40,000 nucleotides of DNA from Clostridiaceae bacterium HFYG-1003. GTDB lineage: Bacteria > Bacillota > Clostridia > Clostridiales > Clostridiaceae. Position numbers and translations under genes: made by a program. Below are positions 8,238 to 22,213 of this stretch, one piece after another. Each line of letters opens with the position of its first letter. Position 1 is the first letter of the stretch. The notes beneath the pieces were generated by a model. It was not told where the DNA came from. It ran no database searches and was given only the letters and a program-made list of their open reading frames with translations. The stretch is taken from contig CP102060.1 in assembly GCA_024579835.1 (NCBI GenBank), forward strand, positions 1,795,558 to 1,835,557, in the 5' to 3' direction.

Positions 8238-11200
8238 ATGGCTAATGACTTTTCCGTGAAGTTTGCCAGGAATACCAAGGCAAACTTTCTTGGCATGCTT
8301 CATCAGGGGAATTACAGTTTGAAGTGGTCCCTCTCGGGGGCAAAGGATTCGGCGGTTAAAATGGTTGAGTCTACTTCCCCGTCCTCTGATCAAGCTTGGG
8401 ATTTGCCAGGCATTCACTCTTCGGTCCGCTATGGAGACATCCTGTCCGCCACGGATCTGGAATATGTGGTTTCCGGTTCTGTCGTGAAAGAAAATCTGAT
8501 TTTAAAACAGGCGGGACTCCCTACCAGCTATGTCTTCACCTATCAACTGTCTAACTTGATCGCGAAGAAAATAGATTCAAGGGTTGTGTTTTATGATCTG
8601 AACGATTCTTCGAAGGAAATCTGGGCTCTGACTGCTCCCTTTGTATATGACGGCAAGGATGAAGCATCAGAAGCTGATCTGTCCCTGAAGGATCTGGGCA
8701 ACGGCAAGATCGAAGTCACCCTGTCGGTGGATCCGGCCTGGCTGTCTTCGCCGGAGCGCGTCTATCCGGTGGTCATCGATCCGCCGCTGCGGACGTCTTC
8801 GCTCACCTCGGATATCCAGGATGCCCATGTCTCGCGCCTGGCTCCGGATAAGAATTTTACCACCACCGATTATCTCTCCATCGGTTCCTCCGATACCCCA
8901 GGCAGCCTTTGCCGGGTCTACTTAAAGTTCAATCTTCCCAGCCTGGACCCATCGGATGTCGTGGTGGATGCCAACCTGAACTTACAGGTACGCAAGTACG
9001 AACTAGCCTCTTCCAGCGAGGTCTATCTTCATCGGGTAACTTCAGACTGGAGCGATGAGACCATTACCTGGAATAATATACCAACCCACGAAAGCCTGAT
9101 TGGGGAATATGATCGATTCGCCAAGGCGGATGAGGAAGTTTCCTTTGATGTAACCCAAATGGTACGGGATTGGTATGGTTCGGGTAAAAACTATGGTGTC
9201 ATGCTAAAGAACGCTGATGAAACAGGAAAGTTCGCTACCTTCTATTCCGGGGGTACCACCCTCAGCGGGAAAACTCGGCCATATATGACCATGGCTTACG
9301 TGAACAATGATGGCCTGGAGCCTTACTGGGATTATCAGACTGCATCAGCCGGGCGGGCAGGAAGTGTTCACGTCAACTACTTCACCGGCGCCCTGACTCT
9401 CATCCATCCGGATACCGCAGCTTCAGGCAACCGCCTGCCAGCTCCGGTCAGCCATGTATTTGGCAACACGAAATCCACTGATGCAAAATATGGCTTGGGA
9501 TGGCGGCTTAACTACAGCCAGACCATTAAAAAGATGATCTTTGGAGGGGAGACCTATTATCGATATTACGATGAGGACGGAACAGCCCATTATTTCAACC
9601 AAAGGGATGGGAAATGGCTAGAAGAAAATGACGATCAGTGGGAACTGACGATTAATACCAGCAAACCGGAAGAACAATTTAAACTGGAAGATAAAAGTGG
9701 CAATCAGCTGATCTTCCGTTATGACTCGGTCCATGGGCTGCTGTCTAAAATTGCCGATGCCAATGGCAACACTATTCACATCGAAACCGGTGCCAACGGA
9801 CAAGTAACTCAAGTAACCGATGGAGCCGGAAGAGCTACGAAGTTTATTTACTCAACTGCCGGTCAACTCACCACAATCAAAGCACCGGATGGGAAAGAAA
9901 CAACCTATCACTATACCAATAACCGCTTAACCAAGATCACTTATCCTGATGGGAAGTCTTCCCTTTATACCTATGACTCAACCAGCGGATATCTGACTTC
10001 GGTTCGCAACTTTGACAGCTATGGTTTGAATCTTTCCTATACTTCAGTCAAACCCTATAAAACGTCCAAAATAACCGAAGTTGGGACCAATGGGACGCTG
10101 GGAACTTCCATCAGCCTAGCTTATGGATTAAACAACACGAAATTAACGGATGGTACCGGTCGTACAAACATCTATCAGTTCAACAATATGGGAAAAACCA
10201 TTTCGATCCGGGATCAGGAAGGTTCCGCCTCGTTCTCCGAGTACAACAGTAAAGGCGCAGGCAACTCGAACAAACTGACCCTATCCTCAAAATTGCAGCG
10301 CACGGTCATCAACCTCATCCGAAATCCCGGATTGGAACGCGATACCGACTGGTCATCCAATGCAGTGAATGGCTCAATCGGCCAAGTTGAAAAAATCAGT
10401 ACTATGCCGCTTATGGGATCCTATTCCAAACTGATTTCCAAGACCAACCCGGATGGTCTCCACCAAATCACTCAGAGCCAAACCCTGGAAAAAGGCAAAA
10501 CCTACACATTGTCTGCTTGGATGAAGCCAACAGAGCTCGCATCCGGCGCTTCTACAGGGGCCTACCTGCGAATTCAGTACACCAATAGTGCGGGCACAGC
10601 CAGCTATCAGTACAGCCCCTTTTTATCAGGTACCAGCACGGATTGGGAACGGAGAGAATTCACCTTCATGCTGCCCTCTGATGCCGCTTCCACCACGGTA
10701 TACCTTGGCATTGGAATCCGGGCAACCACAGGAAATCTTCTGGTCGATAACATCCAGCTGGAGGAAGGCACTCTGTCCAACCGTTACAACTTAATCGAAA
10801 ATGGGGATTTCAGCTATAAGGGATTAGGTTGGATCTCCTGGCAGGATGACTCAACCGATGCCGCGGTGATCACAACTTCCGATCCGGCTCACCCCACTTC
10901 CTTAAGTGACCAGGTGTATCCCATCAAGGGTGATTCAACGCAGAATCATGCCATCGCGCAAAATGTCAAGGTCAACGGTGGTAAGGGTGACACCTTCGTG
11001 TTTGCCGGCTGGGGAAGATCGGACTCATTGCCGGTGGAACCTTACCGCCATTTCTCTCTTTGCCTTGGAATCAATAACACGGATGGCACCACGACCTGGA
11101 AAACCATCCATTTCAACGAAGAGACCAAAGACTGGCAGTATCTGGCCGAAGAGGCCGTGGCCGAGCAGCCATATACCTCTGTGGATCTTTTCCTCATGTA

Positions 11201-13835
11201 CTACAAAAACTTAAACACCGGGTATTTTGACGGGCTGCAGCTCTACAAGGAAACCTTTGGAGAATCAACTATTTATGATGAATCTACCGGTAATCTGACC
11301 TCCTCAACTGATCTCTCGGGCAACACATCAGAATACGGATATACCACAAATGATGATCTCACCACTGTGACCGATCCTTTGAAGAATACCACCACGGCAT
11401 CTTATGATGATAATCATCAGGTGACGGGAGTAAAAACAACAGAAGGCGAGAATACCAGTTTCACCTATGACCAATATGGTAATGTCACAAAGACAAAAAC
11501 TGGAACGACTCCCTTTATTGAAAGTCATTCAAGCTATACCGAGGACGGCAATTTCATCAATACCATGACCGATCCTTTGGGCAAGGTCATCACCTATGAT
11601 TACAATACCGTCAATGGCTTGTTGAAAAGTCTCACCGACGCAGCTGGAAAAACCACGACCTATACTTATGATGATGCTACCGACCAGCTTAAAGGTGTGT
11701 CCAAGCAAGTGGACGGTCAAACAGTGGCAGTAGGTTACACCTATGATGGGGATGACCTGTCAGGCATTAACCACAATGGCTTCTCTTACTCCTTCACGAA
11801 GGATGTTTTCGGTCGAGCCACTGGGGTTAAAGTCGGCAGCCAGAGCCTGGTCGGCTACAAGTACGACTCGCGTGGAAATCTGACCACCACGGAGTTTGGC
11901 AACGGCCATAAAACATTAGTAGAGTATGATCCTCTGGATCAGGTGAAAGCCTATAAGGTATATAATAGTGGTACGGGAAGCTATGAAACTAAGTTCCGTT
12001 ATGAGTATGATGCTTCAGGAAACGTCGGCTATGAGTACGATGCGGTAAACAACCTATCTCATCGCTACTTCTATGACATGTCCGATCGTCTGGTTAAAGA
12101 AACGGTCAGTGACAGCAGCAGCCTCAGCATGGGCTTTGACCCAAACGGACAAGCGACCCAGATCACGGAGAGCTTTGGCGAGAAAAGCTACAACACCGCC
12201 TACACCTATGATAAGGACGGCAAGCTAACTAAATTGACTAATGCCGGTGGATCGATGACCCGTACCTATGACAGCCTGGGTCGCCTGGTCACAATCACGC
12301 TTGAGGCAGGATCAACAAATGCGATTACCAGTTACACTTACAAAGCGGGAACTAACGGCAGTACCAGCAACTTGGTCGAGACGGTCACGGATCCGGACAA
12401 GACGATAAGTTATACCTATGATGATAACGGCAACATCAAGACCATTAACTCTGCCGGCAAGCTCATCACTTATACCTACAACGAATTAAGTGAACTAGTC
12501 CGGGAAGACAATGAAGTAATAAACAAGACGATCACCTATCGCTATGATGCCGGCGGCAATCTCCTGGAGAAGAAGGAATACGCCTGCACTACGGATCCCT
12601 TAGGAACCCCTGACAAAACCATCTCCTATGGGTATGCCGATACCAACTGGAAAGACAAACTGACCAGCTTTGACGGCAAAGCCATAACCTATGATGCCAT
12701 TGGCAACCCCTTAAGCTTTGACGGCTGGACCTATACCTGGGAAGAAGGCCGCCAGCTTAAGACCCTGTATAAAAACGACACCAGCTTAAGCTTCAAGTAC
12801 AACTCCAGCGGCCTGCGCACGGAGAAAAGTGTCAATGGTATTTCGACCAAATACATCTACCTAGACGGAAAAGTAGCCTTTGAAACCACAGGAACTGAGA
12901 CGATCCACTACACCTATGACGGAAGTGGGGCGCCCTTCTCCATGACCTATAACGGCAGTGAGTTCTTCTATCTCACGAACCTCCAAGGGGATGTGACAGG
13001 ACTTGCTGATGCCACAGGCGCCACTGTTGTCAGCTACACCTACGACAGCTGGGGTAAGCTCATGAGCACCACCGGGTCTATGGCAACTACACTTGGTGCA
13101 AAGAACCCGTATCGCTATCGCGCATACCATTATGATACCCAGACTGGACTATATTATCTCCAAAGTCGATACTACAATCCTGAGAGCGGTCGATTCATAA
13201 ATGCAGATAGAGCTGAGATTGTAAACGACCACCATGAAGAATTGAGTAAAAATCTTTTTACCTATTGTAGTAATAATCCAGTTAATAATTTTGATAATAC
13301 AGGAAATTGGAAAATTCCTAATTGGGCAAAAATTACCATAGGGGCAGTTGCCATTGTAGCAACAGGTGTAATAACCGCTGCAAGTGGTGGTTTAGCAGCC
13401 CCAGCAATGTTAGGAGCTCTACAAGTGGCTGGGCATTCTGCCGTTCTTGGCTCAGTGGTTGGCGGATTATCTGGCCTAGTAAAAAATGGCAAGAAGGGAA
13501 TCATAAGTGGTGCTATTGATGGTGCGATAAACGGTTTTATGTGGGGTGGTGTTGGGGCAGCAGGCGAAACATTTGCATCAAAAGTACTTTCAAAAGCCAT
13601 TTTTAATGGGAATGGAGGTTACGGGTTTAAAATCGGAAAGAAATTCGAAGCTTTATATAAAAATCCCAGTAAAAAAAGCGGAGGAACTATTATTTCACAT
13701 GTAAAAAGTAGGGTCAGGCTAGATTTAGACTTCACACATGGTTTGCACGCACACTGGGGTAAAGGAAAAGCAGCTAAAAAAATTCATCGAAGTTTATACC
13801 CGTGGAACTTTGGGAAACCGAAAAAATTCTGGTAG
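8238..13835 (+). CDS. RHS / YD-repeat polymorphic toxin (WapA-like wall-associated protein) with an unrecognised C-terminal toxin region
   Basis: 1865-aa track ORF. It has a DNRLRE-like N-terminal domain (SDIQDAHVSRLAPDKNF...RVYLKFNLPSL), two CBM-like segments (NLIRNPGLERDTDW...LVDNIQLEEG) and dozens of YD repeats (YTYDDNGNIKT, YRYDAGGNLLE, YKYDSRGNLTT...). The core closes with YYLQSRYYNPESGRFINAD...NLFTYCSNNPVNNFDNTG. The coding frame is open upstream to 7863, but 8238 is the first ATG/GTG/TTG in that frame. Confidence 0.9.
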   Translation: MANDFSVKFARNTKANFLGMLHQGNYSLKWSLSGAKDSAVKMVESTSPSSDQAWDLPGIHSSVRYGDILSATDLEYVVSGSVVKENLILKQAGLPTSYVFTYQLSNLIAKKIDSRVVFYDLNDSSKEIWALTAPFVYDGKDEASEADLSLKDLGNGKIEVTLSVDPAWLSSPERVYPVVIDPPLRTSSLTSDIQDAHVSRLAPDKNFTTTDYLSIGSSDTPGSLCRVYLKFNLPSLDPSDVVVDANLNLQVRKYELASSSEVYLHRVTSDWSDETITWNNIPTHESLIGEYDRFAKADEEVSFDVTQMVRDWYGSGKNYGVMLKNADETGKFATFYSGGTTLSGKTRPYMTMAYVNNDGLEPYWDYQTASAGRAGSVHVNYFTGALTLIHPDTAASGNRLPAPVSHVFGNTKSTDAKYGLGWRLNYSQTIKKMIFGGETYYRYYDEDGTAHYFNQRDGKWLEENDDQWELTINTSKPEEQFKLEDKSGNQLIFRYDSVHGLLSKIADANGNTIHIETGANGQVTQVTDGAGRATKFIYSTAGQLTTIKAPDGKETTYHYTNNRLTKITYPDGKSSLYTYDSTSGYLTSVRNFDSYGLNLSYTSVKPYKTSKITEVGTNGTLGTSISLAYGLNNTKLTDGTGRTNIYQFNNMGKTISIRDQEGSASFSEYNSKGAGNSNKLTLSSKLQRTVINLIRNPGLERDTDWSSNAVNGSIGQVEKISTMPLMGSYSKLISKTNPDGLHQITQSQTLEKGKTYTLSAWMKPTELASGASTGAYLRIQYTNSAGTASYQYSPFLSGTSTDWERREFTFMLPSDAASTTVYLGIGIRATTGNLLVDNIQLEEGTLSNRYNLIENGDFSYKGLGWISWQDDSTDAAVITTSDPAHPTSLSDQVYPIKGDSTQNHAIAQNVKVNGGKGDTFVFAGWGRSDSLPVEPYRHFSLCLGINNTDGTTTWKTIHFNEETKDWQYLAEEAVAEQPYTSVDLFLMYYKNLNTGYFDGLQLYKETFGESTIYDESTGNLTSSTDLSGNTSEYGYTTNDDLTTVTDPLKNTTTASYDDNHQVTGVKTTEGENTSFTYDQYGNVTKTKTGTTPFIESHSSYTEDGNFINTMTDPLGKVITYDYNTVNGLLKSLTDAAGKTTTYTYDDATDQLKGVSKQVDGQTVAVGYTYDGDDLSGINHNGFSYSFTKDVFGRATGVKVGSQSLVGYKYDSRGNLTTTEFGNGHKTLVEYDPLDQVKAYKVYNSGTGSYETKFRYEYDASGNVGYEYDAVNNLSHRYFYDMSDRLVKETVSDSSSLSMGFDPNGQATQITESFGEKSYNTAYTYDKDGKLTKLTNAGGSMTRTYDSLGRLVTITLEAGSTNAITSYTYKAGTNGSTSNLVETVTDPDKTISYTYDDNGNIKTINSAGKLITYTYNELSELVREDNEVINKTITYRYDAGGNLLEKKEYACTTDPLGTPDKTISYGYADTNWKDKLTSFDGKAITYDAIGNPLSFDGWTYTWEEGRQLKTLYKNDTSLSFKYNSSGLRTEKSVNGISTKYIYLDGKVAFETTGTETIHYTYDGSGAPFSMTYNGSEFFYLTNLQGDVTGLADATGATVVSYTYDSWGKLMSTTGSMATTLGAKNPYRYRAYHYDTQTGLYYLQSRYYNPESGRFINADRAEIVNDHHEELSKNLFTYCSNNPVNNFDNTGNWKIPNWAKITIGAVAIVATGVITAASGGLAAPAMLGALQVAGHSAVLGSVVGGLSGLVKNGKKGIISGAIDGAINGFMWGGVGAAGETFASKVLSKAIFNGNGGYGFKIGKKFEALYKNPSKKSGGTIISHVKSRVRLDLDFTHGLHAHWGKGKAAKKIHRSLYPWNFGKPKKFW

Positions 13836-13843
13836 AATAAACA

Positions 13844-13922
13844 AATGACTTAATAATACAAGTCATTAAAACGATAAATTAAAACGAGTTTTTATTTATT
13901 TTAAAACTCGTTTTAATTTATC
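13844..13922 (+). terminator. Two consecutive hairpins after the RHS stop codon
   Basis: The first is AATGACTT (13844-13851) / AAGTCATT (13860-13867). The second is a 20-bp perfect stem, GATAAATTAAAACGAGTTTT (13873-13892) / AAAACTCGTTTTAATTTATC (13903-13922), with a T-rich loop. Confidence 0.6.
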
Positions 13923-14067
13923 TAAGGCAATTTCCAGGATACCAATATAGGGATAATCATATATACTTCCCTACTTCTAGCCACTGAAGAGCAAATGATA
14001 TGTTCATAATAATTCTCATTTAATTAAAACATAAATTGCAATAAAAATTTAATAGGAGTTAGTCTAA

Positions 14068-14655
14068 ATGCGCTACAATAAAAAGATCCTTAAAAACGGA
14101 ATTCATGAAGTTGAAATTACTGGTTTCGATATTGAAACCGCTGAATCAAAAGAATTGTTAAAAACTATTATTAGCCTACTAACCTCTGGAATCGAATATT
14201 ATTTTCATTTTTCCAATGAAGATAGTTTTTTTCTAGAAGATGATGAACTGGTTAAGTGTAGACACGATGTTCCAAATCAATTCTCTTCTGATAATTATCT
14301 AGTACCATTTAAGATTGATGATGAACATTTTGATAGCATTGGTTTTCTGCCAGTCAATAATCAAACCTACGAAAAAATTCTAGACTTTTGGAATTATTTT
14401 GAAGGAATGACTTTTTTCACTCCAAAAGATGTTAGCAAGGAATTGTTTAAAAAATCATATAAAATAGAACCGCAAGAAAATGGAGTGGGTTACTTAGATT
14501 CTAACTATGCCGAATCTGTGTTTAATAAGGGACATGATAGAGATTCACTTGTATTTTCATATACACCAACCTATGATGATCAGAGTCTTAAAGTCATTTT
14601 AGACAGAATTGACAAAGAGAATCATACACGTAATTATAGCTGGTTTAATTGGTAA
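14068..14655 (+). CDS. Hypothetical acidic cytoplasmic protein; candidate immunity protein for the RHS C-terminal toxin
   Basis: 195-aa track ORF with AGGAG 9 nt upstream of the ATG. It is the first gene downstream of the toxin, on the same strand, in the same AT-rich block (18/60 GC in line 14101-14160). It is D/E-rich with no TM segment and no recognised family. Confidence 0.5.
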   Translation: MRYNKKILKNGIHEVEITGFDIETAESKELLKTIISLLTSGIEYYFHFSNEDSFFLEDDELVKCRHDVPNQFSSDNYLVPFKIDDEHFDSIGFLPVNNQTYEKILDFWNYFEGMTFFTPKDVSKELFKKSYKIEPQENGVGYLDSNYAESVFNKGHDRDSLVFSYTPTYDDQSLKVILDRIDKENHTRNYSWFNW

Positions 14656-14698
14656 CACCCCCTGGTAGGATCGACATTTAGCATGGTTTTCGCAACAT

Positions 14699-14725
14699 AA
14701 ACCCCGGATCACTCCGGGGTTTCTC
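14699..14725. terminator. Hairpin terminator between convergent genes
   Basis: 9-bp perfect stem AACCCCGGA (14700-14708) / TCCGGGGTT (14713-14721), loop TCAC, followed by TTTCTC. Confidence 0.6.
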
Positions 14726-14804
14726 AAATGCTCATATCAAAAAGCTCTCTGCATTCCAGGCACCAGTAGATCTCATCCCGGATCCTACCCATCAGGGATG
14801 TCTG

Positions 14805-14984
14805 TCAGTCCGGGCAAACTGCCGTACCTGTAAAGTCCGAGTACTGAACAGGACCAGCCAACTGCTTGTACCTAGTTACCGTGTTCAGGTTGACGTGTAC
14901 CATCCGCCCATCTGCCTGATAGATTTGGTTTCCAGTCCTGAAATATTCATCGATTGCTGCCTTCAAGAAGTCTTTTTCACTCAT
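14805..14984 (-). CDS. Hypothetical small protein (59 aa)
   Basis: Track ORF 14805..15035. I moved the start to the internal ATG 14984, preceded by GAGGTGAGACGA. It sits in a ~52% GC patch (31/60 in line 14821-14880). No family recognised. Confidence 0.4.
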   Translation of the reverse strand: MSEKDFLKAAIDEYFRTGNQIYQADGRMVHVNLNTVTRYKQLAGPVQYSDFTGTAVCPD

Positions 14985-15033
14985 TCGTCTCACCTCGTTA
15001 GTTCGTACATACATTCTAACATTAAGGTTGGAC

Positions 15034-15075
15034 AAAAAGAAAAAGCCAGGAAAATCCTGAGCTTTTATTTCTATT
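15034..15075. terminator. Terminator closing the three-gene PIN cassette
   Basis: Stem AGCCAGG (15044-15050) / CCTGAGCT (15056-15063) with one bulge. An A-run lies upstream and TTTTATTTCTATTTT downstream, so it could act on both strands. It begins about 6 nt after the PIN gene stop at 15081. Confidence 0.55.
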
Positions 15076-15080
15076 TTAAA

Positions 15081-15707
15081 CTACGGCTTAAAAGGAATAA
15101 GAATACTTGAACCTACGTGATTTTTATACCCTCCCTTTTTTATAGGTATGACATTTATCCCATTTATTTTTGAGTAACCGAAATCACCAGTTGCTATGGT
15201 GTTAATCCCATATTCAAATGCCGTAAGAACAATTCCAGTATCACTAACTTCAACACAACCATTAAACTGCTTTTGTAGTGTCATGACCCGTGTACAATAA
15301 TCCGTTGGATTCTCTAAAACATCTACCATGGATAGTATATCAGACATAGCCGCGTCCCTATTTGCAGCAACCGTTTGAAAGTAATTGGGGCAGCGGATTT
15401 CTAATTCTTTCTGAAGCTTCTTGAATCCTTGGTTACCTTTATAGTTTCCAATCGAAATATTGTATTGAATTGCTAAATCTTGAGTATAAACCCTCTGTAT
15501 AATATCCATCAATTCATGTTGAATAGTTTGAGTAATGTACATGTTAATGTTGCTCGAAGTCAAATTACTGATTAGATCTACAGCATTTTGTTGATGATAA
15601 GACTGCCCGTCAAGAATATCGATAAACACGTTAGTATCCACTACAACATCCGATATTCCAGGATGAGAAGTTATGTTTTCTGGAAAAATAATATTTGCAG
15701 CCATCAC
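15081..15707 (-). CDS. PIN-like nuclease domain protein (208 aa, longer than VapC)
   Basis: Track ORF. Acidic residues follow PIN spacing: VVVDTNVFIDIL (first Asp), QHELMD (Glu), VSDTGIV and IATGDFGY (distal Asp residues). Start is GTG 15707 or ATG 15704, overlapping the upstream stop (GTGATG). Line 15421-15480 has 17/60 GC. Confidence 0.6.
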   Translation of the reverse strand: MMAANIIFPENITSHPGISDVVVDTNVFIDILDGQSYHQQNAVDLISNLTSSNINMYITQTIQHELMDIIQRVYTQDLAIQYNISIGNYKGNQGFKKLQKELEIRCPNYFQTVAANRDAAMSDILSMVDVLENPTDYCTRVMTLQKQFNGCVEVSDTGIVLTAFEYGINTIATGDFGYSKINGINVIPIKKGGYKNHVGSSILIPFKP

Positions 15708-15868
15708 TTCACCCGCGAAATATTGTTATATGGTTCTAGGTTGATAAATGCTTTCGGGCTAGGCGCATTTTTCTTTAAATTGTCAATTGCTTTTCGAGCG
15801 ATAAAAACCCGCTCTGATGTAGTTTTATTATTAATTGATTCAATGGGCCGTTTAATAATTTTAGGCAT
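15704..15868 (-). CDS. Small basic protein (54 aa), antitoxin-position partner of the PIN-like gene
   Basis: Below the ORF-track size cutoff. My translation is MPKIIKRPIESINNKTTSERVFIARKAIDNLKKNAPSPKAFINLEPYNNISRVK. Its TGA stop (15706-15704) overlaps the PIN start. It begins 4 nt after the upstream stop. Confidence 0.45.
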   Translation of the reverse strand: MPKIIKRPIESINNKTTSERVFIARKAIDNLKKNAPSPKAFINLEPYNNISRVK

Positions 15869-15872
15869 GTAA

Positions 15873-16283
15873 TCAACCCGCTTTCACAAAATAAAGTTTT
15901 TTCTCCTCCTTAAAAGAATCAGCTTCTACTTTTAAAACATATTCACCTTCATCTTCAATGAAAACATTTTTAAGGGGAAGATTCAGATTAATGCCAGCTA
16001 TCTCTTTCGGAACAGAAGGATTAACTTGGATACTTGTATTAATCTCGGCAGCTGCTTCGAAAAGTAATCGATCGGTCCTAGGATTCATAAATGATATTTT
16101 CAAATTGGCTGGTTCCAATGGGAGGCCTTTCAACATAATAAGTGCTGAAAAAGAAAAAGTGCTTGGCAAAACTTCTAATATAAATGATGCCGTCGGACTA
16201 ACAACCGCAGGTTTAACAATACCCTTTGCCGAAGTAGGTAAATCGATAACGTCTTCGCAAAATATAATATTCTCGAGATTCAT
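15873..16283 (-). CDS. Hypothetical 136-aa protein, first gene of the PIN cassette
   Basis: Track ORF with GAGGTGA RBS 5 nt before ATG 16283. It looks mostly beta-strand, has no TM segment, and I cannot name a family with confidence. Confidence 0.55.
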   Translation of the reverse strand: MNLENIIFCEDVIDLPTSAKGIVKPAVVSPTASFILEVLPSTFSFSALIMLKGLPLEPANLKISFMNPRTDRLLFEAAAEINTSIQVNPSVPKEIAGINLNLPLKNVFIEDEGEYVLKVEADSFKEEKKLYFVKAG

Positions 16284-16319
16284 TCAAATCACCTCTATAA
16301 TCTTAAGATTTGTTTTATA

Positions 16320-16350
16320 ATTGTACCACACTTTACTTTATATGTATAAA
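16320..16350 (-). promoter_or_regulatory. Candidate sigma-A promoter of the PIN cassette (extended -10)
   Basis: The minus strand reads TGgTACAAT (-10 hexamer at 16325-16320, TG at 16328-16327). The -35 is weak (TATACA-like). It lies between the lysis-cassette terminator and the cassette RBS. Confidence 0.45.
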
Positions 16351-16407
16351 GCCCTATGTTTTTCTCTCGGAATGGTGGAGCGAATAGTGGATGGGGCTTG
16401 TTTATAA

Positions 16408-16443
16408 TAAAAGAGCCCCCGGATTGCTCCGAGGGCTCTTTTT
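16408..16443. terminator. Strong bidirectional terminator ending the lysis cassette
   Basis: AAGAGCCC (16411-16418) pairs with GGGCTCTT (16433-16440), plus 4 inner pairs and loop TTGC. It is flanked by A-runs and T-runs. Confidence 0.7.
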
Positions 16444-16472
16444 AATGTCATAACTATGATTTAATAACTATT

Positions 16473-16841
16473 TTACATCGCCGGATCCTGAGCGTCAATG
16501 ACAATCGGCAGAGCTTCTGGCAGCTCCTGATCCCACATTTCCTTTACGGCGGTCTCGATATAGTGGTTCAATTCGTCCGTGCTAAATCCTTTGATTCCCC
16601 AGCCCTGGATCTGACAGGTCAGCCGGGCCAGTGCTTCTTCCTTTTTCTTCTTCCCGGTTTGCGTCTTCAGATCGTTCTCAACAGATTTCACGGCAATGTC
16701 TGCCATCTGCAGGACCAACTGGATCTCTTTGTTATCTCGGTTTCGGTCAATCCATTCTTTAAGAGCCGGCACCAGCACGGCCGTTATCAGGAGCATCGCC
16801 ATCTTAATAACAGCATCCACAATAATCGTTCTTTCAGTCAT
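16473..16841 (-). CDS. Phage holin, LL-H-like
   Basis: 122-aa ORF with AGGAGG RBS. It has a single N-terminal TM (IKMAMLLITAVLVPALKEWI) followed by a charged helical tail. It follows the endolysin directly. Confidence 0.6.
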   Translation of the reverse strand: MTERTIIVDAVIKMAMLLITAVLVPALKEWIDRNRDNKEIQLVLQMADIAVKSVENDLKTQTGKKKKEEALARLTCQIQGWGIKGFSTDELNHYIETAVKEMWDQELPEALPIVIDAQDPAM

Positions 16842-16853
16842 GCTTTTATCCTC

Positions 16854-17594
16854 CTACTTCTTCAATACACGTTTCAAGAATGAGTAAAGGATCCAGACCA
16901 ACGTGTGTTTGCTGATCGGCCCTTTCCAATCTTCGTTCTTTACCAGTCCATTCTCAACCGCCCATTTCTGTGCTTCGTCCATTTCAATAACCTCCTGTTT
17001 TCTTCCCTTATCCCATTTGATCAGATCAGTCAGAAGCTCCTCCCAGGGGAACTCCCTGCCCGGATCTGTGATTGATCGGTTGACTGTATCCACCTCGTAG
17101 TGACCTAAGATGTGATCCCGGTCAATCAAAAAAGGCTCCTTAAAAGTAGCCTCGTACTGATCGATGATGTATTTGTGCAGCCAAAGCGTTGCCTCGTACT
17201 GTGCGGCCGTCAAGCGCCCCTGGGTGTCCTTGTGTACGCCTTCATGCTCAATCCCTACCGTATAGAGGTTTGGCGGTGCAGAGCGTTCCTTGACGATCCT
17301 GGCGGACGGTGAGCGCTTCAGCGCATGCCATGTTCCATGGTGCAGATCCGCCAGCTGGTAGATCTCACCCTTCCGGGTTACCAGGAAATGGCAAGATACT
17401 TCTGCAGCATAGTGCAGCTCACCGGGTGAAGTCTCTACTTTCTTCACGTTTGTAAGCCAGTTTAAGGTTCCGGGCATCAGCCCTTCCGTAATGTGGTTCA
17501 CGATCACATCCCACTTTTGTGGGGTCTTGAAAGTCGTGTTTCTTCGCAAAGTTGAAATCTTTCCGTTGTAATTCTCTGCTTTTTTGATTTCCAT
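16854..17594 (-). CDS. Phage endolysin, N-acetylmuramoyl-L-alanine amidase (Amidase_2 / PGRP fold)
   Basis: 246-aa ORF with GGAGGAAC RBS. Motifs include VNHITEG, CHFLVTRKGEIYQL, GIEHEG and GHYEVD...DPG, typical of type-2 amidases. Confidence 0.8.
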   Translation of the reverse strand: MEIKKAENYNGKISTLRRNTTFKTPQKWDVIVNHITEGLMPGTLNWLTNVKKVETSPGELHYAAEVSCHFLVTRKGEIYQLADLHHGTWHALKRSPSARIVKERSAPPNLYTVGIEHEGVHKDTQGRLTAAQYEATLWLHKYIIDQYEATFKEPFLIDRDHILGHYEVDTVNRSITDPGREFPWEELLTDLIKWDKGRKQEVIEMDEAQKWAVENGLVKNEDWKGPISKHTLVWILYSFLKRVLKK

Positions 17595-17603
17595 TAGTTC
17601 CTC

Positions 17604-17981
17604 CTATCTCATTTTTTCCAGGACCTGACTGATCTCGACAAAGCTATACCCCATGAGAACCATGGAGATGATAACAGCTCCAAGGATGATCCACATGAGG
17701 TATGTCGGGTTTTTCAACAGGATCGCCAGCCAGCCGTTGCCGTTCTGTTTGGCCTGTGATGGCGTTACTACCATTATTGAGTTTTCGATTTTCTTCAGGC
17801 TGTCCGGAACACCGTTCAGCCGTTCCAATGCCAGCGAGAAGTTCTGATGCTCCGTGTCATTGCGTCTTGCGATGGCCTCCAGCTCATCGACACGTTGTTC
17901 CATTGCCTTGATATCGTCCTTTAGCCGCCCTACCTCTGCCAGGATCCGACCATGCTCGACGGGGTTAATTTCATATGCCAT
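17604..17981 (-). CDS. XhlA-like lysis accessory protein (coiled coil plus C-terminal TM)
   Basis: 125-aa ORF with GAGGTGAGAA RBS. It has an N-terminal coiled coil (LKDDIKAMEQRVDELEAI) and a C-terminal TM (YLMWIILGAVIISMVLMGY). It lies immediately upstream of the amidase, as in the PBSX xhlA-xhlB-xlyA layout. Confidence 0.55.
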   Translation of the reverse strand: MAYEINPVEHGRILAEVGRLKDDIKAMEQRVDELEAIARRNDTEHQNFSLALERLNGVPDSLKKIENSIMVVTPSQAKQNGNGWLAILLKNPTYLMWIILGAVIISMVLMGYSFVEISQVLEKMR

Positions 17982-18468
17982 TTCTCACCTCGTAATAGAC
18001 GTCTGGAGCTGCACAAGGCCGATGTTCTGCTATGCTGCGATGCTCTTCTTTGACGCGATACAGCTTCCCTTCATCAGTCAAAAGCTTGCCGGCTTTATAA
18101 TATTTCTCTGAAGCCCACTTATCAGCCAGCTGCTTGATAGCTTCGGCCTGGCTTGCTAGAGCCGCATCCGGCATGGAGGATAAAAGATTGTCCACTGCAT
18201 TTCGCCGGTTGAACTCATCTACAGCTGCTTTAATCGCAGGGTCCTCAACCGATTCGCCATATAAGACAAATCTTGTAATATCATCTCTTGTTACATTGAT
18301 AAGAAACTGAATGGCTTCAAGGCGCTCCATCTGTACATCTGTTAGCTTTACATCTTCAACCACAGCGGTATCCGGCGCACTAGGTTCATCAGAATAATTG
18401 ATTGTAACTACCGTATTTGTAATTTTATGTTTGAATGGTGACCATCGGTCACCGTTGAAGTGAAACAT
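17971..18468 (-). CDS. Hypothetical phage protein (tail-fibre-adjacent)
   Basis: Track ORF 17971..18483. I moved the start to ATG 18468, preceded by GAGGAGGCTAACA. No family recognised. Confidence 0.5.
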   Translation of the reverse strand: MFHFNGDRWSPFKHKITNTVVTINYSDEPSAPDTAVVEDVKLTDVQMERLEAIQFLINVTRDDITRFVLYGESVEDPAIKAAVDEFNRRNAVDNLLSSMPDAALASQAEAIKQLADKWASEKYYKAGKLLTDEGKLYRVKEEHRSIAEHRPCAAPDVYYEVRNGI

Positions 18469-18479
18469 TGTTAGCCTCC

Positions 18480-19700
18480 TCAAAGATTAGTTACCCTGAA
18501 AAATTCACACTTCCCTTTGTAATTCACTCCGTTCGCGTTATTCCTAAAATACCCAAGTCCAACATGAGTTATCGTTGTAATAAACACACTTAGATATTCT
18601 GTAAAGACCGTCCACCAAAATGAACCGTCAATGGACACATCTAGGGAATATGAAGTGCCGTTCTTCTTGATCCGGACATAGACAGCAGAAGAATCCCACC
18701 CGCCGTTTAGGTAAGGGTCGGATGAGTATTGAGTATCAGAGTTGAACTTGATCACTTGCATTCCAGAATAATTATTCCGGGTGCATTTCCCGAGTATTAC
18801 TCGCTTTCCATTTGTGTTGTTATATAAACATATACCGAAATTCATGTAGTCTAGCCTTGGACACAGAATAGATATCTTTGCTAAGGCAATAAAGTCACCG
18901 GATGGCGCTGCTTGAACAAGGAGCCTAGTATGGTCCACGCCTGAAAGCAAATCCATCATCCCAGATTGGCCGTTTTCAACCCATGTTGCCGCCCCTTGAT
19001 TTATCCATATCCATTTAGGGTCAAGAGTTATGTCATCAAACTCATCATCCATCGGACTGGGGCTAGAAGGTGGTTCGTCAATTGGGTTGGCTCCGGTGCT
19101 GATCGGTGATTGACTAACCCATTGCGCATTGTAATCTTCATTGTCTATTTTAGACAGTACCTGTCCCGCGCTACCCCCAGCAGGCAATCCATTTGCAGCC
19201 TGATCCGGTGATGGAGCGTAAAGCTTACCGGTGGTAGCATCAATCTTCACTTCAGATGACTCCGTGGTTCTTTCCGCGGCCTTAATCCCGCCAAGCGCAG
19301 TATCTGTTGCTTGGGAAATCGATCCGGCAGCTGGTTTTAACATGATAGTATCCGTCAGAGAATCATAGGTTAGCACATATCCGTCCGTCAGCCCGGTCAG
19401 ATCAATGCTCTTACCGCCGATGCTAGACGAAATCCTTACCGCCCCATTCTCGTCAGGAGCTGATACACTGACGTTGTCGCCAGCCAGGATATTCATGATG
19501 GCATTAATTACCTTGCTGGATCCAGAATTACCTATACTGACGTTTTTCCCGGCAACATACGGCACCATATACGCAGATGGGTCATTCACTACTACCTGTC
19601 CTGAAGGCGTTTCAACAACTCCTGGAGCTTGGTCTTCTGAGGTCACCCTGAACTGAGCGTCCGTTTTCCTTTTAAGTGCTTTTGCTAATTCATTGCCCAT
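18480..19700 (-). CDS. Phage tail fibre / receptor-binding protein with a lectin-like (concanavalin-A-like) C-terminal half
   Basis: 406-aa ORF directly after the tail gene. The N-terminal half is fibre-like and G/S/T-rich. A proline-rich linker (DEPPSSPSP) is followed by a beta-rich domain (LDPKWIWINQGAATW...). Confidence 0.6.
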   Translation of the reverse strand: MGNELAKALKRKTDAQFRVTSEDQAPGVVETPSGQVVVNDPSAYMVPYVAGKNVSIGNSGSSKVINAIMNILAGDNVSVSAPDENGAVRISSSIGGKSIDLTGLTDGYVLTYDSLTDTIMLKPAAGSISQATDTALGGIKAAERTTESSEVKIDATTGKLYAPSPDQAANGLPAGGSAGQVLSKIDNEDYNAQWVSQSPISTGANPIDEPPSSPSPMDDEFDDITLDPKWIWINQGAATWVENGQSGMMDLLSGVDHTRLLVQAAPSGDFIALAKISILCPRLDYMNFGICLYNNTNGKRVILGKCTRNNYSGMQVIKFNSDTQYSSDPYLNGGWDSSAVYVRIKKNGTSYSLDVSIDGSFWWTVFTEYLSVFITTITHVGLGYFRNNANGVNYKGKCEFFRVTNL

Positions 19701-21614
19701 TTAGACACCCCCTGTGAAGTACATAGCAAGCTGCTCAATTTGTGTCCTGACATAGCCATTGTTCTTGGTGATTTTTAGCCGGTACTTGGCATAGGGAGTA
19801 GTGTTAACGAACTTGTACGATCTCCATTCATAGACACCCCAACTCGTTTGATTTGTTCTAGTGTCCAAGGTGATCCACTTCTCCCCATCGTAGGCTTGGA
19901 ATGTCCAATCGCGTGGAAGAGCCTTATTCCAGGTTGTATCTTGTCTTGCCTTGATGGAATACTTATCAACGATCGTTTTCTTTGGAAACTCATACTCAAT
20001 CCAGGCCTGCTGTGTTTCAGATGCGTCCCAGAAGTAGTCGCTAGAGGAGGAATTGAAGGCCCGCCATGGGTGGTAATTGATGTTGTAAAGAACATAGATT
20101 GAGCTGGATCTGGCCACACCGGACGGTTTTGTGTTTGAGGTCATTTCTGGAATTAGGTTTAGCGTTTCGTTTGGAGTTTGGGTTTCGATGTCGGACGGCA
20201 ATTCTCCAGGCACAATCGCATCCCCGTAGTAGTAGGCTTTACAAGCCATCGTGAACTTTGTCGAATCCATGTTGAGATTGATTGATATCAGTCGGTATAT
20301 CTCGTGCGAGTTAGTAGAGGTTTCAAATATTTGAATGAAGTCACCAACTTGGAGATGCGGGATGGCAACTGAACTGAATTCAATAACCCTCGTCCGGCTT
20401 CTCATTGTTGCAATTGCTCGTTCCGCAATTTTCCGAAGCTCACTCATTGATGAAGCTTCTGTAGCATCAATCTTTAGAACCTTTTGAGGTAGAATGTTAA
20501 ACTCTACTGCGTCTAGAAATGGAGCAGTATAAACAAGTACATCGTCGCCTGATTTCCCATATACCTTCACAGATTTATACAGATCGTTGTCATCGATAGA
20601 ATAGGTCATCGAGGAAATATCCTCGCCTTCCTTGAAACTCCACGCCACGTACATATCATCTGACTGAAAATCGCGCCTGAAGTGAAAGTCGCCGGATTCA
20701 TCGCATAGATACTCAAAACTTGCAATATCCGACAAAAATGAAAATGCATCTGCGTAAGATTGCCAGGAGAACGTTTTTTCAATCGATATCCCTGTAGGCT
20801 CTATAAAGCCAATTCTCAATCCGCAAAGCTGAGCCAAATCGAAAACTATATCCTCTATTGGTTGCTTTTCGTAGTGGACGGTACTGGATCCGTTCTTTGT
20901 AACAATTTGATCGAGTGCTCGTTTCATGTTGTCCCGAAGGTTTATTTGAGCTATGTGCGGGAAGGTAGACATATGAATTCCATCTACCATGCCCGTAAAC
21001 GAATCCACAAGATCGTTTCCGTATCCCTGTTTGATTTCAACTTTTTTGTTCAGATTCAGAATGCCATATAACGGCCCATTGGGATTGCGCGGATTGACTG
21101 CCCCATTTTTGTTGTCGACTCTGAGTGTTGCAGTGCTCGAACCTCCGAAAGATTTCGAGATAGAAATCGAACTAATATTGAATACTGAACCATTTTTGGT
21201 TCGGGTAAGAGTCACATGGGCAGTCCCTCTTTTCCAGTGAATATTGCCATTTGAAGACCCTTGTAAAACGGCGGGTTCCCAGTCATTAATCGGAATGTCA
21301 GATCGGATCAAATTCCAATTATCGAGTATATTAAGACTTTGATAGGTTGTTGGCGCTTCTGATTTGTATGCGTAGAGACGCCCAAGTCTAAGTACTTCAC
21401 TAGCACCAAGAGTGAACAAATTACCAGCATCATCTTTGTAAAACTTTCTAAGCCAGTTGTACTGCATGGGTGGGATAAATGCGCTAAACCCGCCTGCGTT
21501 CGCCCATGTCCACGTCCCCCCATAATCCTCGCTTTTAAGTATCAGCGATCCGCAGCGCTCTGGCCATGATTTTTTCCGGGCTGTTGAGTTCCACTTCCAT
21601 CCTGTTGAATGCAT
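19701..21614 (-). CDS. Phage tail / baseplate-hub-like protein with a C-terminal discoidin (F5/8 type C)-like domain; 5' end truncated at a deletion junction
   Basis: 637-aa track ORF. An Asp-box SEDYGGTW lies at the junction. The central region resembles gpD/XkdQ-type hub proteins (KKVEIKQGYGNDLVDSFTGMVDG...). The C-terminus reads WRAFNSS..QAWIEYEF..YSIKAR..WTFQAYDGEKW. The first ~25 codons overlap the rha frame and are probably not native. Confidence 0.6.
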   Translation of the reverse strand: MHSTGWKWNSTARKKSWPERCGSLILKSEDYGGTWTWANAGGFSAFIPPMQYNWLRKFYKDDAGNLFTLGASEVLRLGRLYAYKSEAPTTYQSLNILDNWNLIRSDIPINDWEPAVLQGSSNGNIHWKRGTAHVTLTRTKNGSVFNISSISISKSFGGSSTATLRVDNKNGAVNPRNPNGPLYGILNLNKKVEIKQGYGNDLVDSFTGMVDGIHMSTFPHIAQINLRDNMKRALDQIVTKNGSSTVHYEKQPIEDIVFDLAQLCGLRIGFIEPTGISIEKTFSWQSYADAFSFLSDIASFEYLCDESGDFHFRRDFQSDDMYVAWSFKEGEDISSMTYSIDDNDLYKSVKVYGKSGDDVLVYTAPFLDAVEFNILPQKVLKIDATEASSMSELRKIAERAIATMRSRTRVIEFSSVAIPHLQVGDFIQIFETSTNSHEIYRLISINLNMDSTKFTMACKAYYYGDAIVPGELPSDIETQTPNETLNLIPEMTSNTKPSGVARSSSIYVLYNINYHPWRAFNSSSSDYFWDASETQQAWIEYEFPKKTIVDKYSIKARQDTTWNKALPRDWTFQAYDGEKWITLDTRTNQTSWGVYEWRSYKFVNTTPYAKYRLKITKNNGYVRTQIEQLAMYFTGGV

Positions 21615-21882: not shown

Positions 21883-21890
21883 CTTTCCTC

Positions 21891-22198: not shown

Positions 22199-22213
22199 TG
22201 ATTACCGCCCTCC

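What the first reader, a model, noticed from the sequence alone, without database searches (positions are those of the whole stretch)
15034..16350. Self-contained AT-rich three-gene cassette (136 aa, 54 aa, PIN-like 208 aa) in the prophage cargo slot: candidate toxin-antitoxin or anti-phage module
Sequence observations:
- A unit with its own extended -10 promoter (TGgTACAAT, 16320-16328) lies between the lysis-cassette terminator (16408-16443) and a second terminator (15034-15075).
- It contains three tightly packed minus-strand genes. Gene 2 starts 4 nt after the gene 1 stop, and its stop overlaps the gene 3 start (GTGATG).
- Gene 3 has acidic residues with PIN spacing (DTN...E...SDTG...TGDFGY) but is about 70 aa longer than VapC-type toxins.
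- Gene 2 is a 54-aa basic protein missed by the ORF track, and gene 1 has no family I can name.
- GC is about 28% (17/60 in line 15421-15480), against about 52% in the adjacent 14821-14880 line.

Known context: the region between the lysis genes and the att site is a known hotspot for prophage-encoded defence and TA cargo.

Inference: a three-component PIN system would differ from canonical two-gene VapBC.
Basis: partly seen in the sequence, partly recalled or inferred. Interest (0 to 1): 0.7.

Follow-up and report, generated by a model that had tools for sequence, protein, structure and literature searches.

The report
Three-gene PIN nuclease cassette in prophage remnant
A small, AT-rich, self-contained operon in a decayed prophage encodes a probable RNA-cutting toxin with two unusual partner proteins, and it looks like a rare, undescribed variant of the three-part toxin-antitoxin modules bacteria use against phages.

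Summary
Three minus-strand genes are tightly packed: g1 15873-16283, g2 15704-15868 and g3 15081-15704. They lie between two hairpin terminators, behind a TGnTACAAT promoter-like site, at 34.5% GC against 49.9% in the neighbouring phage genes.

- **g3** is a PIN-domain protein. It scores above the Pfam gathering cut-off and has four invariant acidic residues. Its best solved relative is the 203-aa VapC of the three-gene anti-phage VapKSC system.
- **g2** (54 aa, pI 10.5) is a real gene. It is conserved, under purifying selection, and overlaps the g3 start in every lineage.
- **g1** is an all-beta sandwich of family DUF6941 / phrog_5881.

The same trio occurs in five diverged lineages, each time beside phage lysis or integrase genes. 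It is otherwise very rare.

DUF6941 also leads other tightly coupled cassettes. One kind carries a pair resembling the PADLOC candidate PDC-M32. Another carries a membrane-anchored protein.

My best reading is a tripartite toxin-antitoxin-like abortive-infection module. In it g3 is the toxin, g2 the inhibitor, and g1 a modular sensor or chaperone. Toxicity, neutralisation and defence are untested. The host "prophage" is only a ~9-kb remnant.

The parts
16408..16443 (-). Upstream boundary: intrinsic terminator of the holin gene (16473-16841)
   Evidence: 15-bp perfect stem followed by a U-run, -27.1 kcal/mol, z -6.8. The holin matches Pfam Phage_holin_6_1 at E 8e-12.
16320..16348 (-). Promoter-like site: -35 TATACA, 17-nt spacer, extended -10 TGgTACAAT
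   Evidence: Listed by the consensus scan with 9 of 12 matches and TG present. A TGTTACAAT lies at the equivalent place in L004. This is a consensus match only. No transcription data exist.
15873..16283 (-). g1: 136-aa acidic (pI 4.8) all-beta sandwich protein of family DUF6941 / phrog_5881, the conserved leader gene of the cassette
   Evidence: phrog_5881 at E 2.8e-13. PF22091 scores 21.7 bits, below its cut-off of 27, but 29 of 30 relatives match PF22091. The AF2 model has pLDDT 76, pTM 0.71 and 8 strands. The best structural match is the Anoxybacillus phage A403 134-aa protein, TM 0.72, E 3e-7. An RBS AGAGGTGA precedes the ATG.
15704..15868 (-). g2: 54-aa basic (pI 10.5) protein with no known family, the proposed inhibitor (antitoxin) of g3
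   Evidence: Present at the same position with the same length (53-58 aa) in all five lineages. I12 and N13 are invariant within a conserved [SP]-I-N motif, and the following S-E-R-like segment recurs in most lineages. pN 0.157 against pS 0.876 versus L004, and dN/dS 0.32 for L005 versus L007. It overlaps the g3 start in all lineages. No Pfam, PHROG, NCBIfam, PADLOC or PDB match.
15081..15704 (-). g3: 207-aa PIN-domain protein (208 aa if read from GTG 15707), the proposed RNase toxin or effector, of the long VapC type seen in VapKSC
   Evidence: Pfam PIN scores 26.0 against a cut-off of 23.6 and spans profile positions 1-117 of 120. D23, E64, D155 and D174 are invariant in five lineages. The profile search of PDB sequences gives 9z7o_C, the VapC of VapKSC, at E 4e-5 over residues 19-194 against 23-190, with D23 aligned to the catalytic D28. 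The NCBI name is 'PIN domain-containing protein'.
15034..15075 (-). Downstream boundary: terminator hairpin followed by a T-run
   Evidence: -15.0 kcal/mol, z -3.5. The core stem is listed by the terminator scan. Terminator-like hairpins also follow g3 in L005, L007 and L001 (by eye).

Best explanation
The cassette is a horizontally acquired, self-transcribed three-gene module kept in a decayed prophage. I read it as a tripartite toxin-antitoxin-like (abortive-infection type) system.
- **g3** is a Mg2+-dependent PIN ribonuclease of the long VapC type. It is the toxic effector, and like other VapC proteins it probably cuts tRNA or rRNA.
- **g2**, a 54-aa basic protein translated in step with g3, binds the acidic PIN active-site face and keeps g3 inactive.
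- **g1**, a DUF6941 beta-sandwich, is the third and modular component. It holds or stabilises the g2-g3 complex and releases it when a trigger appears, most likely a protein of an infecting phage. This parallels the SecB-like chaperone in TAC systems and VapK in VapKSC.

The likely outcome is growth arrest of the infected lysogen and protection of the population. A side effect would be retention of the prophage remnant.

**Shown:** operon anatomy, conservation of the trio, PIN identity with intact catalytic residues, coding status of g2, and the recurrence of g1 in front of other effector types.

**Inferred:** toxicity, which partner inhibits g3, the trigger, and the anti-phage role.
For: **Operon**
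- The g1-g2 gap is 4 nt and g2 overlaps g3 by 1 nt. The unit has its own promoter-like site and flanking terminators.

**Conservation**
- The same order and coupling occur in five lineages with synonymous sites saturated: window, L004, L001-3, L005/6 and L007.
- g1-g2 gaps are 2-13 nt. g2-g3 overlaps are 1-11 nt.
- Each copy is AT-rich and sits next to lysis or integrase genes.

**PIN identity**
- Established.
- The closest solved relative is a VapC that is toxic unless neutralised. Its D28A mutant is non-toxic, and it defends as part of a three-gene operon (PMC13373217).
- PIN nucleases have been validated as defence effectors elsewhere (PMC13092281).

**g2**
- It is under purifying selection. 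It is basic while g3 is acidic, pI 5.1.

**g1 as a modular leader**
- The DUF6941 family has about 300 representative clusters at E <= 1e-3, nearly all stand-alone proteins of 130-150 aa.
- Eleven further sampled lineages show DUF6941 tightly coupled to a pair that matches PADLOC candidates PDC-M32A and PDC-M32B.
- In phage A403 it precedes a membrane-anchored coiled-coil protein.
- Some of these cassettes lie beside RM, NACHT-like, Abi_2 and Panacea genes.
- The PDC-M32-like pair also exists without DUF6941. The middle protein then lacks a ~60-95-aa N-terminal extension in 4 of 5 such lineages. This is as expected if DUF6941 acts on that extension, as SecB acts on the ChAD element (10.1101/2024.02.24.581848).
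Against: - No experiment has been done, and no trio protein hits a PADLOC model significantly.
- g2 resembles no antitoxin or DNA-binding family.
- The g3 structure model is poor (pLDDT 53.7). Its Foldseek hits to VapC are weak, E >= 0.025.
- The g1 fold is a generic Ig/E-set sandwich with no informative solved match.
- Only five lineages exist. There are none in IMG/VR, GTDB representative genomes, JGI metagenomes or GenBank phages. The statistical power is therefore low.
- Roles could be permuted, with g1 as antitoxin and g2 as regulator.
- PIN partners need not be antitoxins. In DS-5 of PMC13092281 the partner is required for defence but does not neutralise toxicity.
Confidence: 0.55

Rival explanations
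1. There are two separate things here. g2-g3 is an ordinary two-gene VapBC-like toxin-antitoxin pair. g1 is an independent phage accessory (moron) gene that merely shares the transcription unit.
For: - DUF6941 occurs with unrelated downstream genes, so it does not depend on PIN.
- The PDC-M32-like pair works as a unit without DUF6941 in several IMG/VR contigs.
- The g2-g3 overlap is tighter than the g1-g2 gap.
Against: - g1 is present and closely spaced (2-13 nt, no terminator) in all five PIN lineages, even though synonymous sites are saturated.
- No g2-g3 pair without g1 was found in any collection.
- In every context sampled DUF6941 is coupled to a downstream gene, by overlap or a gap of at most 13 nt, and is never solitary.
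- The presence of DUF6941 correlates with an N-terminal extension in the type-B middle protein.
Confidence: 0.2
2. It is a three-protein effector complex and not a toxin-antitoxin system. g1 and g2 are obligatory cofactors or sensors of the PIN nuclease. The nuclease is auto-inhibited and is not toxic on its own, as in the DS-5 type of PIN defence system.
For: - In DS-5 the partner of a PIN nuclease is required for defence, and its deletion does not unleash toxicity (PMC13092281).
- g2 has none of the DNA-binding or antitoxin domains typical of VapB.
Against: - The nearest characterised relative of g3, the VapC of VapKSC, is strongly toxic alone and needs an antitoxin.
- Start-stop overlap with a small upstream gene is the classic antitoxin-toxin layout. 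That point rests on established knowledge of type II TA operons.
Confidence: 0.15
3. It is a phage life-cycle or host-takeover function, or an anti-defence function. On this view the PIN nuclease processes phage or host RNA during lytic growth, and the cassette is not an immunity or addiction module.
For: - The cassette sits immediately after the lysis genes on the same strand.
- The g1 family is a PHROG, a family of phage proteins.
Against: - The cassette has its own promoter-like site and is insulated from the lysis genes by a strong terminator.
- Its GC content is foreign to the phage, 34.5% against 49.9%.
- It has been retained intact in a ~9-kb remnant that has lost all head and packaging genes.
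- In L005/6 it is convergent with the lysis genes and lies on the integrase side.
- Relatives of the g1 cassettes also occur next to RM and NACHT-like genes in non-phage contexts.
Confidence: 0.07

Closest known systems
VapKSC (VapK kinase, VapS STAS antitoxin, VapC PIN toxin), a three-gene anti-phage TA system. EMBO J 2026, PMC13373217, PDB 9Z7O.
   Same: - The toxin is the closest solved relative of g3 by sequence (E 4e-5, aligned almost end to end). It has the same ~205-aa extended PIN and the same four acidic residues.
- It is a three-gene operon with the PIN gene last.
- It follows the logic of sensor, then inhibitor, then nuclease.
   Different: - g1 is an all-beta DUF6941 sandwich, not a STAS plus GHKL kinase.
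- g2 is a 54-aa basic peptide, not a STAS protein.
- No kinase is present, so control by phosphorylation is excluded.
- Identity to VapC is low and detectable at profile level only.
- The hosts are Clostridia-type prophages rather than Proteobacteria.
TAC, the toxin-antitoxin-chaperone systems (HigBAC, CmdTAC). 10.1101/2024.02.24.581848; PMC11618068.
   Same: - It is tripartite.
- The third component is modular and combines with unrelated toxin-antitoxin warheads, as DUF6941 does with the PIN, PDC-M32-like and membrane partners.
- The chaperone acts on an extension of the antitoxin. Here the presence of DUF6941 correlates with an N-terminal extension of the type-B middle protein.
- The chaperone doubles as the phage sensor.
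   Different: - No SecB-like protein is present, and g1 has a different, Ig-like fold.
- The gene order differs: the accessory gene comes first here.
- The toxin is a PIN domain, not HigB, MqsR or CmdT.
- No ChAD-like aromatic pattern was demonstrated in g2.
Canonical VapBC type II toxin-antitoxin
   Same: - It has a PIN toxin with four acidic residues.
- A small upstream gene overlaps the toxin start.
- It is carried on a mobile element.
   Different: - g3 is ~70 aa longer than typical VapC proteins of 125-140 aa.
- g2 lacks any AbrB, RHH, PhD or HTH DNA-binding domain.
- A conserved third gene is present.
PADLOC phage-defence candidate PDC-M32 (two genes, untested)
   Same: The commonest DUF6941-led cassettes carry proteins matching PDC-M32A (C-terminal domain, E down to 9e-8) and PDC-M32B (E 1.5e-5). 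The g1 family is therefore linked to a defence candidate.
   Different: - The window's g2 and g3 do not match PDC-M32.
- Only the leader gene is shared.
- I found only one paper that names PDC-M32, and there it appears only as a PADLOC hit in rhizobial prophages.

Membership tests
PIN domain (Pfam PF01850) | Profile match above the curated gathering score | tested here: met
   26.0 bits against 23.6, covering protein residues 21-181 and profile positions 1-117 of 120. The L001 homologue scores 24.5, also above the cut-off. L005 scores 21.4 and L007 16.0, both below it.
PIN domain (Pfam PF01850) | Four conserved acidic active-site residues in the canonical order | tested here: met
   D23, E64, D155 and D174 are invariant in five lineages at 34-69% identity. 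They align with the D, E, D and D of the VapKSC VapC, including the catalytic D28.
PIN domain (Pfam PF01850) | Three-layer alpha/beta/alpha fold with a parallel sheet | tested here: inconclusive
   The AF2 model was built from a 3-sequence alignment. It has pLDDT 53.7, and the C-terminal half is below 50. The top eight Foldseek PDB hits are all VapC proteins, but with E >= 0.025 and low TM-scores.
PIN domain (Pfam PF01850) | Mg2+/Mn2+-dependent nuclease activity | not testable with these tools
   Needs biochemistry.
VapBC type II toxin-antitoxin | Antitoxin with an N-terminal DNA-binding domain (AbrB, RHH, PhD/YefM or HTH) encoded just upstream | tested here: not met
   g2 and its four homologues match no Pfam family at E <= 0.1. 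The PDB sequence search gives nothing better than E = 1, which is not significant.
VapBC type II toxin-antitoxin | Two-gene operon | tested here: not met
   A third gene, g1, is conserved in all five lineages.
VapBC type II toxin-antitoxin | Toxin arrests growth and the antitoxin neutralises it | not testable with these tools
   Needs expression assays.
VapKSC | Long VapC-like PIN toxin | tested here: met
   9z7o_C is the best solved-structure sequence match: E 8e-5 with the 3-sequence profile and 4e-5 with the 5-sequence profile, aligned over residues 19-194 against 23-190.
VapKSC | VapK (STAS plus GHKL kinase) and VapS (STAS antitoxin with a C-terminal helix) | tested here: not met
   g1 is an all-beta DUF6941 protein and g2 is 54 aa. 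Neither shows a STAS or kinase match in Pfam, NCBIfam or PDB.
TAC (toxin-antitoxin-chaperone) | SecB-like chaperone gene | tested here: not met
   No SecB match. The g1 fold is an 8-strand sandwich.
TAC (toxin-antitoxin-chaperone) | The accessory protein is modular across unrelated toxin-antitoxin pairs and is tied to an extension of the middle protein | tested here: inconclusive
   The analogous pattern is seen for DUF6941: three partner types, and an N-terminal extension present in 11 of 11 DUF6941-linked type-B middle proteins but in only 1 of 5 unlinked ones. This is correlation only. Nothing was shown for g2 itself.
DUF6941 (PF22091) / phrog_5881 | Profile match for g1 | tested here: met
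   phrog_5881 at E 2.8e-13 over residues 4-132. PF22091 scores 21.7, below its cut-off of 27, for g1 itself. However, 29 of 30 aligned relatives match it, the best at 2.1e-14.
Known or candidate defence systems in PADLOC-DB v2.0.0 | Significant match of any trio protein | tested here: not met
   The only hit is PDC-S09 at E 0.023 for g3. There is nothing for g1 or g2.
Type I / type III (RNA antitoxin) TA | Antisense RNA, or tandem-repeat RNA upstream of the toxin | tested here: not met
   No tandem repeats at 14600-16600. No Rfam match near its gathering score.

The most novel reading that the evidence does not exclude
DUF6941 beta-sandwich proteins are a previously unrecognised class of modular gatekeepers, acting as sensors or chaperones, in temperate-phage-borne immunity.
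- One Ig-like protein stands in front of interchangeable toxic warheads: PIN RNase plus a 54-aa inhibitor, a PDC-M32-like pair, or a membrane-anchored protein.
- It controls them through an extension or peptide of the middle protein.
- This would be a TAC-like architecture that evolved independently of SecB.

The window's cassette would be the PIN-armed member of that family.
Probability: 0.3. Interest if true: 0.75.

Novelty: new variant of a known kind. Interest (0 to 1): 0.6.

Why it matters
Tripartite toxin-antitoxin systems (TAC, VapKSC) show how bacteria couple a generic toxin to a specific phage sensor. Very few sensor or chaperone folds are known.

This cassette pairs a VapKSC-type PIN toxin with two partners that belong to no described antitoxin, chaperone or sensor family. 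Its leader protein recurs in front of at least three unrelated effector types in phage accessory slots.

If the model is right, three things follow:
- It adds a new, small and portable sensing module.
- It gives a function to a DUF/PHROG family.
- It links the untested PADLOC candidate PDC-M32 to the same logic.

If it is only a VapBC-like pair plus a passenger gene, it is a routine prophage moron.

Tried and rejected
**Similarity searches that found nothing**
- Megablast of 14000-17600, and tblastn of g1, g3, two g1 relatives and a family consensus, against GenBank phages.
- IMG/VR scans with the g3 and g1 profiles. A scan with type-B g1 sequences only re-found known contigs.
- GTDB-representative genome scans and JGI metagenome scans.
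- The word-indexed 5.8-billion-protein search gave only 3 hits for g3 and 3 for g1.

**Structure**
- The g3 model was too poor for a fold verdict.
- The g1 fold search against PDB gave only generic Ig/E-set hits such as MD-1, RhoGDI, UNC119 and the Wzt CBD, all with E > 1e-3. I therefore rejected any lipid- or glycan-binding inference.

**Readings rejected**
- RNA antitoxin or ToxIN-like: no repeats and no Rfam family.
- g2 as a ribbon-helix-helix protein: no profile support.
- Antisense ORFs 15958-16320 and 15588-15872: they are broken in L001, and family hits support the minus-strand frames.

**Unresolved**
- No att direct repeats of 11 nt or more flank the element, so its boundaries are unknown.
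- I saw a palindrome AATCTTAAGATT between the -10 site and the RBS by eye. It is not conserved in other lineages, and the repeat tool did not pick it up. I make no operator claim.
Full report
**1. What is in the sequence**

Three ORFs lie head to tail on the minus strand.
- g1 is 15873-16283, 136 aa.
- g2 is 15704-15868, 54 aa.
- g3 is 15081-15707, 208 aa from GTG. It is 207 aa from the ATG at 15704, which is how NCBI annotates the identical protein P0001 of Clostridiaceae bacterium HFYG-1003.

g2 starts 4 nt after the g1 stop. The g2 stop overlaps the g3 ATG (TGATG).

Upstream, the holin gene ends in a strong hairpin terminator at 16408-16443 (-27.1 kcal/mol, z -6.8). This is followed by a promoter-like site: TATACA, 17 nt, then TGgTACAAT at 16320-16328. 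Downstream of g3 there is a weaker hairpin plus T-run at 15034-15075 (-15 kcal/mol, z -3.5).

The cassette is 34.5% GC. The adjacent phage genes are 49.9% and the whole window is 48%.

The promoter call is a consensus match only, because such sites are not enriched in this AT-rich stretch (14 found against 10.3 +/- 3.4). A TGTTACAAT does sit at the same place in the related locus L004.

**2. Context**

The amidase (16854-17594) and the Holin_LLH gene (16473-16841) lie directly upstream. The rest of the element consists of:
- tail-like genes at 17604-21614;
- a Rha regulator at 21535-21987;
- an HTH_3 repressor-like gene at 22259-22699;
- an integrase at 22857-23885.

Ordinary host genes follow, including HPr kinase and a nitroreductase. 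No capsid, portal or terminase gene is present. The "prophage" is therefore a ~9-kb remnant.

On the other side of the cassette lie three features:
- a 59-aa ORF at 14805-14984;
- a bidirectional-looking terminator;
- an RHS toxin gene whose AT-rich tip is followed by an immunity-like ORF.

I found no att repeat.

**3. The three proteins**

*g3.* It matches Pfam PIN above the gathering score, 26.0 against 23.6, across the whole profile with an internal insertion. A profile of g3 homologues searched against all PDB sequences gives one significant hit, 9z7o_C "Escherichia VapC" (203 aa). The E-value is 8e-5 with three sequences and 4e-5 with five, aligned over 19-194 against 23-190.

That protein is the toxin of VapKSC, a three-gene anti-phage TA system. 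In VapKSC, VapC is toxic, its D28A mutant is not, the STAS protein VapS neutralises it, and the kinase VapK is proposed to release it (PMC13373217). D23 of g3 aligns with D28. E64, D155 and D174 align with the other acidic residues. All four are invariant in five lineages. The "extra 70 aa" is therefore a feature shared with this long VapC type.

The AlphaFold model, built from a 3-sequence alignment, is poor (pLDDT 53.7). Its top Foldseek hits are all VapC proteins but are not significant. The PIN assignment rests on sequence, not on fold.

*g2.* It has no match in Pfam, PHROGs, NCBIfam, PADLOC or PDB. It is nonetheless a real gene.
- An ORF of 53-58 aa sits at the same place in all five lineages. 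I12 and N13 are invariant within a conserved [SP]-I-N motif, and the S-E-R-like segment after it recurs in most lineages.
- Non-synonymous divergence is far below synonymous divergence: pN 0.157 against pS 0.876 versus L004, and dN/dS 0.32 for L005 against L007.
- It is basic in four of the five lineages, while g3 is acidic in those same four.

*g1.* It matches phrog_5881 at E 2.8e-13 and, weakly, DUF6941. Of 30 relatives, 29 match DUF6941. The model (pLDDT 76, pTM 0.71) is an eight-stranded beta sandwich. Solved structures give only generic Ig/E-set similarity. Among viral models the best match is a 134-aa protein of Anoxybacillus phage A403, TM 0.72, E 3e-7.

**4. Is the trio conserved?**

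Yes, but it is rare. The 5.8-billion-protein index holds only two relatives of g3 besides the protein itself. Relatives of g1 led to two more.

All five lineages carry DUF6941, then a ~54-aa gene, then a ~210-aa PIN gene. These are the window, L004, L001-3, L005/6 and L007. Protein identity to the window ranges from 69% down to 34% for g3.
- The g1-g2 gaps are 2-13 nt, and the g2-g3 overlaps are 1-11 nt.
- In L001 the trio follows a holin-like gene and an endolysin-like gene.
- In L005 it lies between an integrase and a convergent endolysin/holin pair.
- Each copy is AT-rich (33-40% GC) and has flanking terminator-like hairpins.

Nothing related turned up in GenBank phages, IMG/VR, GTDB representative genomes or JGI metagenomes.

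**5. What g1 does elsewhere**

An exhaustive HMMER search found about 300 representative clusters related to g1. Nearly all are stand-alone proteins of 130-150 aa.

I sampled the contexts of eleven further lineages: L008, L009, L011, L013, L016, L019, L025, L030, L031, L033 and L034. In each, DUF6941 overlaps or abuts a 159-199-aa protein, which is followed by a 120-131-aa protein.
- The conserved C-terminal domain of the middle protein matches PADLOC candidate PDC-M32A, with E down to 9e-8.
- The last protein of L011 matches PDC-M32B at E 1.5e-5.
- Several of these cassettes sit beside integrases, lysis genes, Abi_2, SocA_Panacea, RM genes or a NACHT-like gene.

The PDC-M32-like pair also occurs without DUF6941 in IMG/VR. 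In 4 of 5 such lineages the middle protein is only 94-125 aa and lacks the poorly conserved 60-95-aa N-terminal extension. All eleven DUF6941-linked versions have that extension.

In phage A403 the DUF6941 gene (E 9e-12 to my family HMM) overlaps a 184-aa coiled-coil protein with a C-terminal membrane helix. It lies next to the recombinase.

DUF6941 is thus a constant leader gene with interchangeable downstream partners, in accessory slots of temperate phages or in defence-type neighbourhoods.

**6. Most likely mechanism**

The anatomy fits a tripartite toxin-antitoxin-like abortive-infection module.
- g3 is the RNase effector.
- g2 is the co-translated inhibitor. A basic peptide suits the acidic PIN pocket, which is where VapB or VapS act.
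- g1 is the modular third component that stabilises the complex and/or senses the trigger.

Two described precedents exist:
- VapKSC has the same toxin type but a different sensor and antitoxin.
- In TAC systems a SecB-like chaperone binds an extension of the antitoxin, combines with unrelated TA warheads, and is itself the phage sensor (10.1101/2024.02.24.581848; PMC11618068).

The correlation between DUF6941 and the N-terminal extension of the type-B middle protein is the same kind of signature as chaperone addiction. It is a correlation across 16 lineages and not a demonstration.

I put 0.55 on this overall model. My confidence differs by component:
- **High:** this is a conserved three-gene PIN operon.
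- **Moderate:** g3 is a toxin.
- **About even:** g2 rather than g1 is the direct inhibitor.
- **Low to moderate:** g1 is a sensor or chaperone.

**7. Rivals**
- (a) g2-g3 is a plain VapBC-like pair and g1 is a passenger gene (0.2). Against this, g1 is present in every PIN lineage and DUF6941 is never solitary in the sampled contexts.
- (b) It is a non-TA effector complex in which the partners are cofactors, as in the PIN system DS-5 (PMC13092281) (0.15).
- (c) It is a lytic-cycle or anti-defence function (0.07). This is disfavoured by the insulating terminator, the foreign GC content, and retention in a phage remnant.
- RNA-antitoxin types are excluded.

**8. Comparison and novelty**
- g3 is a member of the PIN superfamily and most resembles the VapKSC VapC.
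- The cassette is not a VapKSC system, because it has no kinase and no STAS protein.
- It is not a TAC system, because it has no SecB.
- It is not a canonical VapBC system, because it has no recognisable VapB and it has three genes.
- It is in no PADLOC v2 model.
- No paper in the library mentions DUF6941.

I class it as a new variant of a known kind: a tripartite PIN toxin-antitoxin or defence module with non-homologous partners.

The wider point is potentially the more interesting result. A DUF6941 leader gates several effector types, which ties it to the untested candidate PDC-M32. This remains a hypothesis.

**9. Verdict**

Interest is 0.6.

Noticed in passing
window 8238-14655: A 1865-aa RHS-repeat protein (8238-13835, +) has a 3' tip that becomes AT-rich: GC 0.42 from 13000, falling to ~0.3. 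An AT-rich 195-aa ORF with no known family follows at 14068-14655 (+). This looks like a polymorphic-toxin C-terminal tip with its immunity gene.
   Followed up: no
window 14700-23900: The phage-like element is only about 9 kb. It holds an integrase (22857-23885), an HTH_3 gene (22259-22699), Rha (21535-21987), tail-like genes, an amidase, a holin and the trio. It has no capsid, portal or terminase genes. Host genes such as HPr kinase (32807-33745) resume beyond it. No flanking direct repeat of 11 nt or more was found.
   Followed up: partly
window 14805-14984 (-): A 59-aa ORF with a good RBS and normal GC (0.48) sits between the cassette terminator and a second strong hairpin at 14700-14727 (-18.2 kcal/mol). 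It matches no family.
   Followed up: no
L005 3730-3879; L006 2180-2329: In one trio lineage a 49-aa ORF (MGKSENTKLLLTIPSELKEQLQ...SLNNYILWLL) lies just upstream of g1. By eye it looks like a ribbon-helix-helix regulator. It is absent from the window and is unverified.
   Followed up: no
L008, L009, L011-L014, L016-L019, L025, L029-L034: This is a second and commoner three-gene cassette. It has DUF6941, then a 159-199-aa protein whose C-terminal domain matches PADLOC PDC-M32A, then a 120-131-aa protein (PDC-M32B-like in L011). The last protein carries an LLRAV...SSAAxK..GLSVxR...H[ST]E pattern that resembles an R-S-E ADP-ribosyltransferase motif. That resemblance is untested.
   Followed up: partly
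L028 (MG969427, Anoxybacillus phage A403) 35864-36822: A DUF6941-like gene (AVO22623.1) overlaps by 1 nt a 184-aa coiled-coil protein with a C-terminal transmembrane helix (AVO22624.1). The pair lies next to the site-specific recombinase. This is a third partner type for the g1 family.
   Followed up: partly
window 24249-29063 (+): A very long ORF of 1604 aa with a TTG start has only a weak cytidylyltransferase-like hit. It overlaps several minus-strand ORFs that have no family matches. Which strand is coding was not resolved.
   Followed up: no
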